Shown: one piece after another, positions 12,412-23,574 of the stretch
How the letters are laid out: the number at the start of each line of letters is the position of its first letter
How positions within the stretch are numbered: position 1 is the stretch's first letter
Source of the DNA: Terriglobia bacterium
Lineage (GTDB): Bacteria > Acidobacteriota > Terriglobia > 20CM-2-55-15
Direction of reading: 5' to 3'
Assembly: GCA_963664115.2 (NCBI GenBank)
Contig: CAXWPJ010000012.1
Coordinates: forward strand, 320,001 to 384,000
DNA: 64,000 nucleotides
Position numbers and translations under genes: made by a program
Notes under the pieces: generated by a model
What the model was told of the DNA's origin: nothing
Seen by the model: the letters and a program-made list of their open reading frames with translations, nothing else
Databases searched by the model: none

Positions 12412-12544
12412 ACGACCATGAAAATGATTCTCAAGTCCTGTATCTGGACTCCTCTGTCAAGTAGGCGCAGCTCTCCCGTCAGCTTTCTTCGGCAAAATGC
12501 ATTCAGCAGGACTGACTAGAAGTTACGAGGTGAGTAGCTAGTCG

Positions 12545-12680
12545 ACTGCACCCGTATCTTCGGCCTCAAAAGTGGAACTGTATTGTTCCAGGCCATGATG
12601 GAAATTTGCGCGCGGGGAGCCAACCGATAAAATAACGGCCTCTAAGGGCCAAAGGACTTGTCGGCGTTGCCCCGCGCCGG
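12545..12680 (-). ncRNA. Predicted bridge/seek RNA of IS1111-A (boundaries approximate)
   Basis: Two stem-closed loops, each with an inner hairpin; guide segments match the target (CAAGTCCT, GATAAA) and the donor junction (CCATCAT, TATCT). Confidence 0.75.
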
Positions 12681-12748
12681 TCTGACCGGTACGCCATCAT
12701 CTCGAACCTCATCGCAGCTCGCTGAAAAGATATTCCGACTGTTCCGGG

Positions 12749-13783
12749 TCAGGCCGCCTGATACCGGGCCTGATGGTCACAGTCACGGTTCCAAACCGCC
12801 CACACGCGACGCGCCAACTTGTTGGCCAGTGCAACGATTGCCTTGTTGTGTCCGCGGAACTCGTGTTTCTGGAGACCCCATTGCTGGAGAGGTGTCGGTG
12901 TGGCGCCCTCTCGATGGGCACTCCACAACAGGGAACGGCCCCCATGAACCAACAGCATCCGGAGGTAACGATCGCCTTGCTTACTGATCCGGCCCATGCG
13001 TCGCTGGTTGCCACTGGAATGTTCCCGGGGTGTGAGTCCCAGATAACTGGCAAAATGGCGGGACGTTCGGAATCGTTTGATGTTTCCAACAAACCCCACC
13101 ATTGCCGTTGCCGTTAACAGGCCGATGCCGGGAATCGACGTCAGACGCGCGACCTCAGGCATCTGCCGAGCCAGCGTCTTCAACTCTTGTTCCACCGATC
13201 GCATGCGAGATTCCAATTCACGGATCTCGCCACACACCTGGTGAAACATCTCCCGAACGACACTGGGGATGACGACATCTGCATCTTCGATCAGCTCCAT
13301 TACCCCCGGCACCAGATGATCCGCTCCGGTCGGGATCACGTAGCCAAACTCCCGTAACAACCCCCGCACCGTATTGATCCGTGCGGTTCGGGTTCGCATC
13401 CACGCCGAACGGATTCGATGCAATGAGGTCAGTTGCTGTTGGGCCAGGGTTTTGACCGGCACTGGATGAATATCGCTGTCACGATAGGCTTCCAACAATC
13501 CTTTCACATCCGTACGGTCGGTCTTGTTGCGCCTGACGTAGGGCGTCACATACTGCGGCGAGATCAGAACGACCGTGTGTCCCAGTTCCCGGATCTTCCG
13601 ACCCCAGTAATGGGCGGATCCGCAGGCTTCCATCACCACGGTCGCCAGCTCCTGGTTCGCAAAGAACCCCAGAAACTTTGCCCGACTTAAACGATAGGTT
13701 TTCTCTACATGCCCGGGGCGATCTGAAACACCAATTTGAAAAACATTCTTTGCCAGATCCACTGCTATCGTTCTATTCTTCAT
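12749..13783 (-). CDS. IS110 DEDD recombinase/transposase A
   Basis: IAVDLAK, VMEACG, KTDRTD, SIPGIG, PREHSSG; AGGAG RBS before ATG 13783. Confidence 0.95.
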   Translation of the reverse strand: MKNRTIAVDLAKNVFQIGVSDRPGHVEKTYRLSRAKFLGFFANQELATVVMEACGSAHYWGRKIRELGHTVVLISPQYVTPYVRRNKTDRTDVKGLLEAYRDSDIHPVPVKTLAQQQLTSLHRIRSAWMRTRTARINTVRGLLREFGYVIPTGADHLVPGVMELIEDADVVIPSVVREMFHQVCGEIRELESRMRSVEQELKTLARQMPEVARLTSIPGIGLLTATAMVGFVGNIKRFRTSRHFASYLGLTPREHSSGNQRRMGRISKQGDRYLRMLLVHGGRSLLWSAHREGATPTPLQQWGLQKHEFRGHNKAIVALANKLARRVWAVWNRDCDHQARYQAA

Positions 13784-14145
13784 CTCGGACTCCTTTTTGT
13801 TCACACGTACACGTGTTTCGCCCGCTTTATTGCGAGGCTCAAAATGACTTTGGCACTTCGATGCCGACTCAGTCATCAAAGAGGAGTCCATACCATCAAT
13901 AAATCATCTTCTCGGACGTTGAGAATTGTGCGGCAGGTTTTGCCCCTCACAGGGAAATTTCAGTCCTCTGTGGGCGGGCGCGGTGCCAAAGCCTACGCTG
14001 ATGCACGATGCCTTGCGGGACGAGGACTGCCAGTCTGCCCGACTGGCCGAACACCTCCTATCGTTCGTTTAAATCCCAGTTTCGCCTTTGCCTCTCGGGC
14101 GAATCGAGTAGAATTATCCGTATACCGAAAACCACGAGGGGAGTC

Positions 14146-16293: not shown

Positions 16294-17277
16294 TTATACC
16301 ACTCCAATCCTAAGGTTCTCGATTTTGCGTCGAGCCAGCGTTTTTCTTTTGATCTGGTCACGACGTGCAAGGATCTGCTGATCCCTCCCGAAGAACACGT
16401 CAGCCGGTGTCACGTTGTTCAGAGATTCGTGATACCGATGGTGGTTGTAGTGTTCGACCCATTGCGCGATCGCCTGCTCAAGTTCCCACGGATAATAGTA
16501 GTGTTCCAACTTGACCACGTTCTTCATCGAACGGTGATAGCGTTCGATCTTGCCCTGTGTCATCGGGTGATAGGGCGCACCCCGGGTGTGTTCCATACCA
16601 CGACGTTGTAAATAGTCTTTGAGTTCGTGCGATACGTAGCAGGGGCCGTTGTCGCTCAACAATCGCGGTCGGTGCCGGACTTGTACTTGTCCGACATCTG
16701 TCGCCTGTAGTGCAACGTCCAGCGTGTCCTGAACGTCAGATGCGGCCATGGTTTGAAAGAGCTTCCAGGCGATGATGTAGCGAGAGTAATCGTCCAGCAC
16801 GGTCGACAGGTAGTACCAACCCCAACCGACGACCCTGAAGTAAGTGAAATCAGTTTGCCAGAGTTCGTTCACACGCCGGGTTGGCTGCTGGAAGTGATCG
16901 CTGGCCGTCATCACGATGTATGCGGGACTGGTGATCAGGTCGCATCTCTTCAGAATCCGATACACGCTGGATTCGGAGATGAAGTAGTCCTGGGTGTCGG
17001 TGATCTGCCAGGCCAGTTCCCGCGGTGAGGCTTCCGGGTGGTTCAACGCGGTTTCGACCACCTGTTCCCGCACCGGTCCCGGAATCCGGTTCCAGCAGAA
17101 GCCGGGGCCGGAATGCCGATCTAACAAGCCGGCTGCGCCACGCTCTTTGTATCGTCGATACCAACCGTAGAACGTGCTGCGGGGGACGCCCAGCTCCCGG
17201 AGGGTCGCTGTCACCGACAACTCCGAGTCTTCCACCACTCGGATCGTCTCCAGCTTCTCAGATCCCGATTGCCTCAT
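16294..17277 (-). CDS. Transposase OrfB (rve integrase core)
   Basis: WQTDFT, LDDYSR, LSDNGPCY, PYHPMTQGKIER. Confidence 0.92.
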   Translation of the reverse strand: MRQSGSEKLETIRVVEDSELSVTATLRELGVPRSTFYGWYRRYKERGAAGLLDRHSGPGFCWNRIPGPVREQVVETALNHPEASPRELAWQITDTQDYFISESSVYRILKRCDLITSPAYIVMTASDHFQQPTRRVNELWQTDFTYFRVVGWGWYYLSTVLDDYSRYIIAWKLFQTMAASDVQDTLDVALQATDVGQVQVRHRPRLLSDNGPCYVSHELKDYLQRRGMEHTRGAPYHPMTQGKIERYHRSMKNVVKLEHYYYPWELEQAIAQWVEHYNHHRYHESLNNVTPADVFFGRDQQILARRDQIKRKTLARRKIENLRIGVV

Positions 17278-17615
17278 ATATCGATGCTCTCGGAGTCCGT
17301 TACGTTCAACGTTTTTTTCAGAAAACGATTCTTTAGCAGTATTTCGGCTACGACCTGCTTCAGCTGTTCGTTCTCCTGGCGTAATTCAGTGACTTCGCTC
17401 GATGTCGCTTCCCGCTTCGTGTCCCCAGCCAGCCGTTTCTTCCCCGCCTCCAGGAAGTCCTTGCTCCACCGGTAATACAAATTCGATGGAATCCCTTCGC
17501 GTCGGCACAGCGCTGCGATGCTCTCTTCGCCTCGCAGTCCTTCCAACACAATCTCGCACTTTCTCTTCCGACGAATCTCCCGTACCCGATTCTCTGCCGA
17601 CACTTTCTCACTCAT
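17274..17615 (-). CDS. Transposase OrfA (HTH), possibly with a short deletion
   Basis: IVLEGLRGEESIAALCRREGI...YYRWSKDFLEAGKKRL. Confidence 0.85.
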   Translation of the reverse strand: MSEKVSAENRVREIRRKRKCEIVLEGLRGEESIAALCRREGIPSNLYYRWSKDFLEAGKKRLAGDTKREATSSEVTELRQENEQLKQVVAEILLKNRFLKKTLNVTDSESIDI

Positions 17616-21876: not shown

Positions 21877-22169
21877 CGTTTTACTATGTCGCGCAAAGGA
21901 ACCGCGTAATTCTGGCAAGTCTATCTATGTGGAAGGGTTATAAGCAAGAAAAGGCGCAACTCCCGCATCTTACCCAATTCTCAACGTCCGACAAGATGAT
22001 CTATGAAAGGGGATGTCAAGAGAAACAGCTCCCCGATGGCCGGCCAGGCGGACACTTTTGTCGTGACAGCCAGCCCCTCTACCGTTATGTGAAGCCCTGG
22101 TTCCGGCAATCCGCAGCGAAATCGTACATCTTTAAGACGGTCGATTCAGAAACTGAACAGCAGATGGGA

Positions 22170-22305
22170 CGGCATGTGCCGACCATGGATCTATCTGAGC
22201 CTCGAAGGCTATCGCTGTTTCAGGTCGTGCGAGGGGGGATAGAGATTTAAAAGTGTCCTCTGGACGTATCCAGGGACCACATCTTGTGCAGATCCTCACC
22301 CTCGA
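22170..22305 (-). ncRNA. Predicted bridge/seek RNA of IS1111-B (boundaries approximate)
   Basis: Loops with inner hairpins; guides GATTTA/CATCTTGT match the target, GATCTAT/ATCGCTGT match the donor junction. Confidence 0.75.
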
Positions 22306-22370
22306 TCCTCAGTTGTTCCGACTCCGTCTAACGACTCAGTACGGCTCTACCGGTCACGGATCGAAACGGC

Positions 22371-23435
22371 TTATGTTGTCATCCAGCTCAGTTTCTTTGG
22401 ATCGAACGATTCTCCTTTCTTCCAAAGCGTCAGCACCAGTGCGGCGATCTTACGGGCCAGAGTGACCCGCGCCATTTCCTCCCGCATCCCACGCATCTGG
22501 AGACTCTCCAGATAAATCCGATACGGCTCGCTTTGTTTTCCCGATGCCGCGGCTGAGAAGAACACCGACTTCAATCGCCGGTTGCAGTTCGCATTCAATC
22601 CGCGTGTGGCCACCGGTTTCCTCCGTCGCACCACACGTCCACTCTGCATCTCATACTCCGCGCTCATGTGGGTCACCACACCCAGGCCACTGTAGCTCCA
22701 GAACTGCGGTGTCGTGCGGAATCGGTACGGCGTGTCCACGATGGCGACGATCTGTGCCGCCCGAACCGGTCCCAGTTGTGGAATGGTCTCGAGCAGTTTC
22801 ACCGCCTCATGGTGCCGGCCCTCCACTCGCACCGCTTTTCTGGATTGTTTCCGCAGCAACTGGACCTGGTCCAGTTCCGCATACAACCATCGGGCGCGCT
22901 GCCTCATCCCCGGCTCGGTCAGCTTCTCCAACCACTGTTCGCGCTGACTCGGCCGATAGACTCCGTCCTTCGGTGTCGGGATCCCCCGTCCCCGGTATAT
23001 CGCTTTGATCCGCGACATCACCCGTTGCGTGTCCAACTGGAACGTGTCATAGGCCTGCACCAGTTGCTTCAATTCTCGCGTCGCTTCATGGCCGTGATAC
23101 ACCGAGCGCAACAGTCCCACCCGCAACAGCTCGGCCAGCTTCCGCGCATCCGGCTTATCCCCCTTCGACCCTTCTTGCATCCACTTGTTCTGTCGCGGAT
23201 CGCACACCACCACCTCGCTCACCCACGGCCGGATCACTTCCGATAACCAGCCCGCTTGCGTGGTCTCCTCCAACCCCACGTGCATCGGCCCACTCAATCC
23301 CTCCAGCAGCCGTGTGATACTCCCCGCCTCGGTTTCCACGATCGTTTCAAACACCAGTTTGCCGCTCCCGTCTCTCACCGCAACCACCGTCGTTGCCTGG
23401 TGCACATCCATACCCATATACTTGTCTTGTTTCAT
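22371..23435 (-). CDS. IS110 DEDD recombinase/transposase B
   Basis: GMDVH, LEET, KGDKPDA, TIPQLG, FWSYSGL...HMSA; AGGAG RBS. Confidence 0.93.
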   Translation of the reverse strand: MKQDKYMGMDVHQATTVVAVRDGSGKLVFETIVETEAGSITRLLEGLSGPMHVGLEETTQAGWLSEVIRPWVSEVVVCDPRQNKWMQEGSKGDKPDARKLAELLRVGLLRSVYHGHEATRELKQLVQAYDTFQLDTQRVMSRIKAIYRGRGIPTPKDGVYRPSQREQWLEKLTEPGMRQRARWLYAELDQVQLLRKQSRKAVRVEGRHHEAVKLLETIPQLGPVRAAQIVAIVDTPYRFRTTPQFWSYSGLGVVTHMSAEYEMQSGRVVRRRKPVATRGLNANCNRRLKSVFFSAAASGKQSEPYRIYLESLQMRGMREEMARVTLARKIAALVLTLWKKGESFDPKKLSWMTT

Positions 23436-23574
23436 CTCGAACGCTCCTTTTCTGGGATCAACGCTGTATACGTTGATCAGGTTGTTGAGTGAGTCTTCTC
23501 TCAACAACCCCCAGTCTAGGGGCGTCCTTTCATACTGCGATTTATCGGGATCTGAGAATCAATTTCACTGCTAT

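What the first reader, a model, noticed from the sequence alone, without database searches (positions are those of the whole stretch)
22001..22370. IS1111-B has an independent bridge/seek RNA aimed at the spacer of the same site
Seen: the junctions share a GAT core (ACAAGAT-GAT-ctatg... and ...actgc-GAT-TTATCG). One loop, closed by CGAGGGGGGAT/ATCCTCACCCTCG, carries GATTTA (22244-49) and CATCTTGT (22280-87) around a GTCC..TGGA/TCCA..GGAC hairpin, matching target ACAAGATGATTTA. A second loop carries GATCTAT (22188-94) and ATCGCTGT (22211-18) around AGCCT/AGGCT, matching donor ACTGCGATCTAT with one mismatch. The guide reads the TTGTCG variant present in this copy rather than the TTCTCG majority variant. 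The RNA function is inferred.
Basis: partly seen in the sequence, partly recalled or inferred. Interest (0 to 1): 0.83.

Follow-up and report, generated by a model that had tools for sequence, protein, structure and literature searches.

The report
IS1111 guide RNA targeting repeat spacer
This jumping gene encodes a predicted folded guide RNA whose letters spell out the spot where its copies sit, the middle of a short repeat found about 150 times in the genome; it is a new example of a known RNA-guided mechanism, here likely aimed at a recombination-type site.

Summary
Observation confirmed; interpretation mostly right. The stretch is the downstream non-coding end of an IS1111-type element (7 copies in the genome); the RNA is read from the minus strand. 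Both target guides track the insertion flanks across relatives (6.62 of 7 and 3.81 of 4 matches; 0 of 10,000 permutations as high), and the stems covary. The element prefers the variant its guide spells: 5 of 6 complete insertions versus 4 of 123 empty sites (p 3e-6). Corrections: the core is probably GA, not GAT; the right-arm variant (TTA) is selected at least as strongly as TTGTCG; IS-A enters the arm, not the spacer; and the supposed left donor guide (22211-18) is mostly paired in a covarying RNA helix that crosses a second helix (pseudoknot or switch). Only the right donor guide tracks the element end. The target is an 11-6-11 palindrome resembling a Xer site; a distant clade of relatives aims other guides at the same site family. 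Expression and activity are not shown. The scan noted IS1111 guide RNAs on other DNA before. New member of a known kind.

The parts
21979..21994 (+). Left arm of the target palindrome (TCTCAACGTCCGACAA, the GACAA variant)
21995..22000 (+). 6-bp spacer GATGAT; the second GA (21998-99) is the likely recombination core
   Evidence: register of relatives
22002..22010 (+). Subterminal inverted repeat at the element's right end (TATGAAAGG)
22014..22019 (-). -35 hexamer TTGACA of the predicted circle-junction promoter
   Evidence: activity untested
22153..22161 (-). 3' strand (GCUGUUCAG) of helix B, which pairs with the supposed left donor guide
22178..22184 (-). 3' strand (GGUCGGC) of helix A, which crosses helix B
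22188..22194 (-). Donor guide AUAGAUC, matching the element's right end plus core
22198..22210 (-). Inner hairpin of the donor domain (AGCC/GGCU)
   Evidence: 100% of cells paired, 2 of 4 pairs with two-sided change
22211..22223 (-).
22223..22230 (-). 5' strand (GCACGACC) of helix A
22230..22304 (-). Target-binding domain (about 75 nt): outer stem 22230-40/22292-304 and inner hairpin 22253-79
22244..22249 (-). 3' target guide UAAAUC (reads core plus right arm, GA-TTTA)
22280..22287 (-). 5' target guide ACAAGAUG (reads left arm, spacer and first core base)
22371..23435 (-). IS110-family DEDD transposase, 354 aa; D10, E56/E57, D93, D96 and S258 invariant in 42 of 42 aligned relatives
23526..23534 (+). 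Subterminal inverted repeat at the element's left end (CCTTTCATA)
23532..23537 (-). -10 hexamer CAGTAT of the predicted junction promoter, 17 bp from TTGACA in the circle
   Evidence: activity untested
23539..23557 (+). Second copy of the core and right arm of the target palindrome (TTA variant)

Best explanation
This is the guide-RNA region of an IS1111-type insertion sequence whose copies sit in the 6-bp spacer of a repeated palindromic site; the RNA is predicted to bind the transposase and likely selects that site by pairing with both DNA strands. Shown: element anatomy, seven copies at this position, covariation of both target guides with flanks, covariation of the stems, and the variant preference. 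Inferred from IS1111/IS621 work: the element excises or copies out as a circle, the joined ends form a TTGACA-17-CAGTAT promoter, a roughly 180-nt RNA (and perhaps a 75-nt target-only form) is made from the minus strand, ACAAGAUG pairs with one strand and UAAAUC with the other around a GA core, and the DEDD/Ser258 active site exchanges strands. The donor is likely read one-sidedly: AUAGAUC pairs with the right end plus core, while the left side is held by at most GCGAU and by protein contacts on the subterminal repeats, because the rest of that segment is paired in helix B.
For: Seven copies with 100% identical transposase, all at this site position. 5' guide versus flank 6.62 of 7 over 16 distinct guides, permuted mean 3.18, 0 of 10,000; 3' guide 3.81 of 4 over 16 distinct guides, permuted 1.27, 0 of 10,000. 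The sister lineage keeps the same core and register but has other guides and matching other targets (tree). Target-domain stems: 93.8% of cells paired, 11 of 17 pairs with two-sided change, 0 of 500 shuffles, slid controls 40-59%. Strand: 22 G-U against 6 A-C cells. Guide order is the IS1111 order of PMC11187229. Variant preference: left C 6 of 7 versus 35 of 123 empty sites (p 0.004); right A 6 of 6 versus 30 of 123 (p 3e-4); both 5 of 6 versus 4 of 123 (p 3e-6), stable when IS-A-held sites are added. Donor guide follows the right end in three separate changes: AAC to ATC, ATAG to ACAG in L009, AAC to GAC in L101. Helix B: column pair 15-81 is AU 28, CG 7, UA 1, other 1; forcing the open loop costs about 7 kcal/mol.
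Against: No direct proof of expression: four RNA runs of one study give only short unstranded contigs at depth about 2-10. No circle junction among the joints listed for four DNA-like runs (contigs drop rare forms). Counter-examples: C12:167620 and L056 sit in the G variant, L056 with two guide mismatches; 4 of 23 relatives match at only 1-2 of 4 3'-guide positions; donor guide and end disagree in L031 and L059. No handshake signal (p 0.11). The transposase scores below the NCBIfam IS110 cut-off (122 against 140). Relatives are not independent, so covariation counts are a few events each.
Confidence: 0.7

Rival explanations
1. One reading: a symmetric IS621-like donor loop closed by helix A, with ACAGCGAU open and pairing with the left donor (one mismatch). 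Helix B would be a resting fold that opens when the donor binds.
For: RNAalifold picks helix A and leaves the segment open; helix A has 97% of cells paired and 3 of 7 pairs with two-sided change; the architecture mirrors the target loop; in the GA-core lineage GCGAU matches the donor 5 of 5.
Against: The A-to-C change in the segment is matched by a compensating change in the internal partner while the donor changed TAGC to CTGC, which the segment does not follow. In the AC-core relatives the two core-facing letters vary freely and rarely match the donor core. Pair probabilities for helix B are 0.99-1.0 at four pairs in the window sequence.
Confidence: 0.15
2. SeekRNA-only model: the 75-nt target domain does all the guiding, ends are recognised by protein on the subterminal repeats, and the second domain is scaffold or processing signal.
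For: For ISEc11 the 82-nt RNA alone supported movement (PMC11187229); subterminal repeats are present; no handshake signal.
Against: AUAGAUC follows the element end through three separate changes. A preprint reports that target-only RNA supports only part of the reaction in another IS110 (10.1101/2025.10.25.684509, passages).
Confidence: 0.12
3. Targeting comes from protein or DNA structure (for example a bound recombinase or the hairpin), as proposed for IS1202-family elements at dif sites, and the RNA match is incidental.
For: Unrelated elements crowd the same site: IS-A (7 of 8 left ends) and an IS30-family element. IS1202 precedent (PMC10132070, abstract).
Against: Close relatives with other guides sit at other, matching sites; the preference for single-base site variants follows the guide letters.
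Confidence: 0.02

Closest known systems
IS1111-family seekRNA elements ISEc11, ISPa11, ISKpn4, ISPst6 (Siddiquee et al. 2024, PMC11187229; parts 1-3 of 9, section 13 and passages read)
   Same: DEDD transposase of similar size, long non-coding region after the gene, subterminal inverted repeats, no target duplication, two target matches with the top-strand complement first, target domain of about 75 nt, natural re-aiming between relatives, repeated palindromic landing sites (REP, attC).
   Different: Divergent transposase (GL-V----SA instead of GL-P----SG; below the NF033542 cut-off); perfect repeat of 9 bp with 8 bp between the repeats in the circle (paper: 11-13 bp, 7+3); target is the central spacer of an 11-6-11 site.
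IS621 bridge RNA (Durrant et al. 2024, PMC11208160; Hiraizumi et al. 2024, PMC11208158; PMC13626964; passages read)
   Same: Target domain followed by donor domain, two-letter core, guides on both strands, DEDD plus serine residues at equivalent places.
   Different: RNA lies after the gene and reads the site in reverse; donor domain has two crossing helices and only one clear guide; no handshake covariation found. Durrant et al. already note multi-loop donor domains in many IS1111 orthologues.
IS1202 family (ISAjo2) targeting pdif/dif (Harmer et al. 2023, PMC10132070; abstract only)
   Same: Insertion sequence that homes to Xer-type sites in one orientation.
   Different: DDE transposase, no RNA, inserts 5 bp outside the XerC site with a duplication; this element enters the spacer itself by RNA pairing.
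XerCD dif / pdif sites (layout recalled; PMC3025954 passages)
   Same: Two roughly 11-bp arms around a 6-bp spacer; left arm matches the XerC arm of the genome's own dif candidate at 8 of 11 (by eye); arms constant while the spacer differs between genomes.
   Different: Right arm matches the XerD arm at only 6 of 11; about 150 copies in same-direction clusters; recombinase unknown.

Membership tests
IS1111 family | DEDD RuvC domain plus Transposase_20 domain with catalytic serine | tested here: met
   PF01548 and PF02371 above cut-off; D10, E56/57, D93, D96, S258 invariant in 42 of 42
IS1111 family | Score above the curated IS110 equivalog cut-off / GL-P----SG motif | tested here: inconclusive
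   NF033542 122 bits against cut-off 140, E 2.5e-35 over the full length; motif reads GL-V----SA, with SG in 4 of 42 relatives
IS1111 family | Long non-coding region downstream of the gene | tested here: met
   370 nt downstream against about 100 nt upstream
IS1111 family | Subterminal inverted repeats with asymmetric extensions | tested here: met
   TATGAAAGG at both ends, extensions unequal; shorter than the usual 11-13 bp and 8 rather than 10 bp apart in the circle
IS1111 family | No target duplication; one fixed site and orientation | tested here: met
   Empty allele with 300/300 identical flanks has one GAT; 7 of 7 copies in the same position and orientation at the right end, 6 of 6 at the intact left end
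IS1111 family | Top-strand complement precedes bottom-strand match in the RNA | tested here: met
   ACAAGAUG precedes UAAAUC on the gene strand; rule from PMC11187229
IS1111 family | Circular intermediate with junction promoter | tested here: inconclusive
   Joined ends give TTGACA-17-CAGTAT; no circle joint listed in four runs held as contigs
IS1111 family | RNA co-purifies with the transposase and is needed for movement | not testable with these tools
   RNA-run contigs are unstranded and shallow
Bridge RNA (IS621 type) | Target loop with two guides that covary with insertion sites | tested here: met
   (0 of 10,000 for both guides); stems
Bridge RNA (IS621 type) | Donor guide matching the end plus core on one strand | tested here: met
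   three separate joint changes, two misses
Bridge RNA (IS621 type) | Second, open donor guide matching the other end | tested here: not met
   segment covaries with an internal RNA partner, not with the end; an alternative open fold is not excluded
Bridge RNA (IS621 type) | Handshake bases covary with the opposite substrate | tested here: inconclusive
   24 matches against 19.8 expected over 39 guide groups, p 0.11
Xer/dif-type site (for the target) | 11-6-11 layout with conserved arms and lineage-specific spacer | tested here: met
Xer/dif-type site (for the target) | XerD-binding arm (TTATGT-like) | tested here: not met
   right arm TT(C/A/G)TCAGGACT, 6 of 11 to the dif candidate's arm
Xer/dif-type site (for the target) | Recombined by XerC/XerD or another tyrosine recombinase | not testable with these tools
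   XerC, XerD and an integron integrase are encoded; none is linked to the site by my calls
attC (for the target) | RYYYAAC/GTTRRRY boxes, extra bases on one arm, length of about 57 bp or more (recalled) | tested here: not met
   site is about 40 bp, majority right end CTTGAGA, unpaired bases on opposite arms

The most novel reading that the evidence does not exclude
One IS1111 clade has been re-aimed more than once, by RNA guides alone, at the central spacer of an undescribed Xer-like site family that punctuates gene-cassette clusters in Acidobacteriota, and its donor domain is a pseudoknot or two-state switch that hides the left donor guide, giving one-sided donor recognition or a built-in control of direction.
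Probability: 0.3. Interest if true: 0.65.

Novelty: new member of a known kind. Interest (0 to 1): 0.42.

Why it matters
It is a clean natural test of guide-directed targeting: one genome offers about 120 near-identical empty sites differing at two bases, and the element picked the variant its RNA spells. The clade supplies dozens of naturally re-aimed guides with fixed scaffolds, useful for learning IS1111 programming rules. How IS1111 elements recognise their own ends is an open dispute (seekRNA versus bridge RNA); this clade gives a sharp test because the right donor guide tracks the end while the left one is paired inside the RNA. The landing site itself, a repeated recombination-type site used by three unrelated IS types, may be the more novel object and is unexplained.

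Tried and rejected
Single-sequence folding gave no excess stability on either strand. Rfam: 0 matches at E up to 1. Handshake covariation: not significant. A 3-bp GAT core: rejected in favour of GA because relatives share only two letters in that register. Target duplication: rejected by the empty allele. attC and REP readings of the site: attC boxes not met; the two variable arm positions that would pair in a hairpin do not covary (ACAA with TTG only 4 of 123), which argues against a folded single-strand site. A first orientation count double-counted strands and was replaced. Literature searches for an IS110/IS1111 element aimed at Xer/dif-type sites, for a pseudoknot in bridge RNAs and for this site family gave nothing relevant in the listings; the library lacks most subscription papers, and the supplements of PMC11208160 and of preprint 10.64898/2026.10.21.760802 (bridge-RNA clusters), which I did not see, may already hold this clade. 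A look-up of the site among earlier scan notes returned nothing.

Full report
Observation. The stretch 22001-22370 lies between the stop codon of a 354-aa gene on the minus strand (23435-22371) and a junction with a palindromic repeat. The protein has both IS110-family Pfam domains above cut-off, matches NF033542 over its length but below that model's cut-off (122 against 140), and has D10, E56/E57, D93, D96 and S258 invariant in 42 of 42 aligned relatives; IS621 uses D11, E60, D102, D105 and S241 (PMC11208158, passages). A 9-bp subterminal inverted repeat flanks the element, and joining the ends gives TTGACA-17-CAGTAT. The host is likely an acidobacterium (record titles of the two hits; earlier scan notes); I did not test this.

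Copies and target. The genome holds 7 copies with identical transposase; 6 are complete (1538 bp plus one core) and 1 has lost its left end to another insertion. All follow ...G(A/C)AAGATGAT and the six complete ones precede GATTTA. C11:1098 has an empty allele on C6 with 300 of 300 identical bases on each side and a single GAT, so no bases are duplicated. The target is a repeat of two 16-bp arms (inner 11 bp Xer-like) around a 6-bp spacer: 154 distinct intact sites, 121 with spacer GATGAT, in clusters where 86 of 91 adjacent GATGAT pairs face the same way at a median 2.6 kb; 8 of 129 lie inside long ORFs that cover 79% of the genome. It is found in 3 of 4 congeners at 8-79 matches and once in each of two other genomes among 60 relatives, and with other spacers in a second family.

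Target guides. Relatives came (2 loci; 49 loci). Of 53 sequences examined first, 41 had a detectable right end and 38 could be anchored on the scaffold without using flanks (L016, L017 and the in-genome relative dropped). Allowing a shift of 0 or 1 base for observed and permuted pairs alike, the 5' guide matched the flank at 6.62 of 7 positions over 16 distinct guides (permuted mean 3.18, maximum 4.81, 0 of 10,000). The 3' guide matched the other flank at 3.81 of 4 over 16 distinct guides from 23 loci (permuted 1.27, 0 of 10,000); four loci matched only 1-2 of 4. An unanchored scan of all alignment windows put the best left-flank match at 22250 (3.75 of 4, next 1.69). The window's element uses the shifted register; so does its whole sister lineage (G001, G002, G029, G021), which has the same GA core and end but guides and targets such as AAGTT-GA-CAGT (sister relation 97/89). 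The element therefore arose by re-aiming. In relatives only two letters are shared at both junctions (AC on the gene strand; TC here), so the core is likely GA on the plus strand. On the gene strand the top-strand complement comes first, the IS1111 order of PMC11187229 (parts 1-3 of 9 read).

Variant preference. Against 123 empty GATGAT sites, occupied sites have C in the left arm in 6 of 7 (35 of 123; p 0.004), A in the right arm in 6 of 6 (30 of 123; p 3e-4) and the full 13-mer in 5 of 6 (4 of 123; p 3e-6). Adding the six IS-A-held sites to the background leaves p at 0.004 and 7e-4. Outside this genome L010 sits in the C variant and L056 in the G variant with two guide mismatches, giving 7 of 9 (p 0.005). 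Perfect 13-mers remain unoccupied at 7 places, and 66 of 72 sites within one mismatch are in the repeat.

Structure. The window sequence alone folds no better than shuffles and Rfam has no match. On 37 sequences (the window plus 36 of 37 representatives chosen from 83 anchored loci at 93% identity; alignment), the target domain has 93.8% of cells paired and 11 of 17 pairs with two-sided change; 0 of 500 shuffles reach this and slid controls give 40-59%. Wobble pairs favour the minus strand, 22 G-U to 6 A-C. These controls do not remove relatedness.

Donor domain. AUAGAUC (22188-94) equals the right end plus core and changes with it three times (AAC to ATC in this lineage, ACAG in L009, GAC in L101); it disagrees with the end in L031 and L059. 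Its AACAGC pairs with GCUGUU at 22156-61; relatives have AAAAGC with GCUUUU, and the changed column pair reads AU 28, CG 7, UA 1, other 1 of 37. The donor meanwhile changed TAGC to CTGC, which the segment does not follow, and three distant relatives have TTGC against TAGC or AAGC. This helix B crosses helix A (GCACGACC/GGUCGGC; 97% paired, 3 of 7 pairs with two-sided change), so the domain is a pseudoknot or has two states; forcing A alone costs about 7 kcal/mol. Durrant et al. note multi-loop donor domains in many IS1111 orthologues (PMC11208160, passages). A handshake test was not significant (p 0.11).

Independence from IS-A and convergence. IS-A (window about 12440-13900) is 23% identical in protein, shares no significant non-coding similarity, lies in the opposite orientation to the site and enters the right arm after TTA in 7 of 8 left ends found. 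A motif marking an IS30-family element (one copy tested) occurs 16 times, mostly right after an arm and spacer (by eye). Relatives at 46-49% identity in another family carry different guides that read the same right arm or the spacer (L102, L105, L107, L108, L119, L122, L127). They lie in a separate supported clade (100/99) from the window's element (100/100), each clade with members aimed elsewhere (L122 left out; the tool's change count ignored unlabelled rows, so I read the topology). Separate re-aiming is the simpler reading but is not proven, and some of these flanks match the site only loosely.

What the site is. A single dif candidate lies on C2 near 108 kb where the GC skew changes sign. 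The repeat's left arm resembles its XerC arm (8 of 11), the right arm does not resemble the XerD arm (6 of 11). XerC, XerD and an integron integrase are encoded. I call the site Xer-like by layout only.

Expression. Four RNA runs of one study hold short contigs over the non-coding end at depth about 2-10; strand and ends cannot be read, and DNA carry-over is possible. Four other runs hold the element, with no circle joint listed. Neither counts as support or refutation.

Mechanism and verdict. By analogy with ISEc11/ISPa11 and IS621 (PMC11187229; PMC11208160; PMC11208158; PMC13626964 passages; preprint 10.1101/2025.10.25.684509 passages; review PMC13604230 passages), the joined ends likely drive an RNA that loads the transposase, opens the site with two guides and recombines at GA, with the donor read mainly from one side. 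It works like a bridge RNA and meets the testable IS1111 criteria; it does not meet the open second donor guide of the IS621 pattern. IS1111 elements aimed at repeated palindromes are known, and this scan has noted several on other DNA (unchecked notes). My searches found no paper on an IS110-family element aimed at Xer-type spacers or on a pseudoknotted donor domain, within a library that lacks most subscription papers and with supplements unseen (PMC11208160; preprint 10.64898/2026.10.21.760802, passages only). Verdict: real, well supported, a new member of a known kind with two features worth testing. Interest 0.42.

Noticed in passing
window 8369, 13901, 15305, 19823, 21979 and about 150 places in G000: Undescribed 11-6-11 palindromic site family, intergenic, in same-direction clusters about 2.6 kb apart; a second spacer type (TGTCGT/GGTCGT, 16 sites) mostly faces the other way. 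Looks like a tyrosine-recombinase cassette system; recombinase unknown.
   Followed up: partly
L102, L105, L107, L108, L119, L122, L127 (G169, G071, G121, G243): Distant relatives of this transposase aim different guides at the same site family; in L119 and L127 the guide and flank carry opposite variants of the arm, hinting at tolerance or action in trans.
   Followed up: partly
G000 C12:531495 (minus): Transposase-less relative with the same RNA scaffold, the GT core and other guides; 10 of 11 match to its own flank.
   Followed up: partly
window 22445 to 22244: Two RNA runs (X3, X4) hold a contig that joins 22445 back to 22244 at a shared GAT; the left side resembles the donor (GC-GAT-CT) and the right side is the DNA of the 3' guide. 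Could be a circular RNA, self-targeted recombination or a template switch; depth 3-4, not listed in the four other runs.
   Followed up: no
window 12440-13900 (minus): IS-A, a second IS1111-type element (above the NCBIfam cut-off), enters the right arm of the same site; candidate guides CAAGTCCT and TTTATC lie in its downstream end.
   Followed up: partly
L129 (G000 C12:495090-496600) and 15 further motif matches: IS30-family element inserted at the spacer/arm boundary of the same site, from either side.
   Followed up: partly
L056 (G002): A 97% identical copy, 5'-truncated, lies next to an IS-A-like element that appears to have entered the left arm in mirror orientation.
   Followed up: partly
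G000 C1:92965, C1:108556, C2:196490, C12:36231, C12:159079, C12:487026: Six identical copies of a tyrosine recombinase plus a 340-aa ORF, five of them next to a site; similar units at C3:2990 and C12:570146 interrupt a site's right arm.
   Followed up: no
G000 C2 near 108139 (minus): Candidate chromosomal dif site at a GC-skew switch.
   Followed up: partly
G000 C11:1-58000 and C6:24000-48400: Partly duplicated site-rich region in opposite orientation, one copy with and one without this element.
   Followed up: no
window 16294-17615 (minus): Integrase-core transposase (IS481/IS3-like scores) with an upstream small ORF.
   Followed up: no
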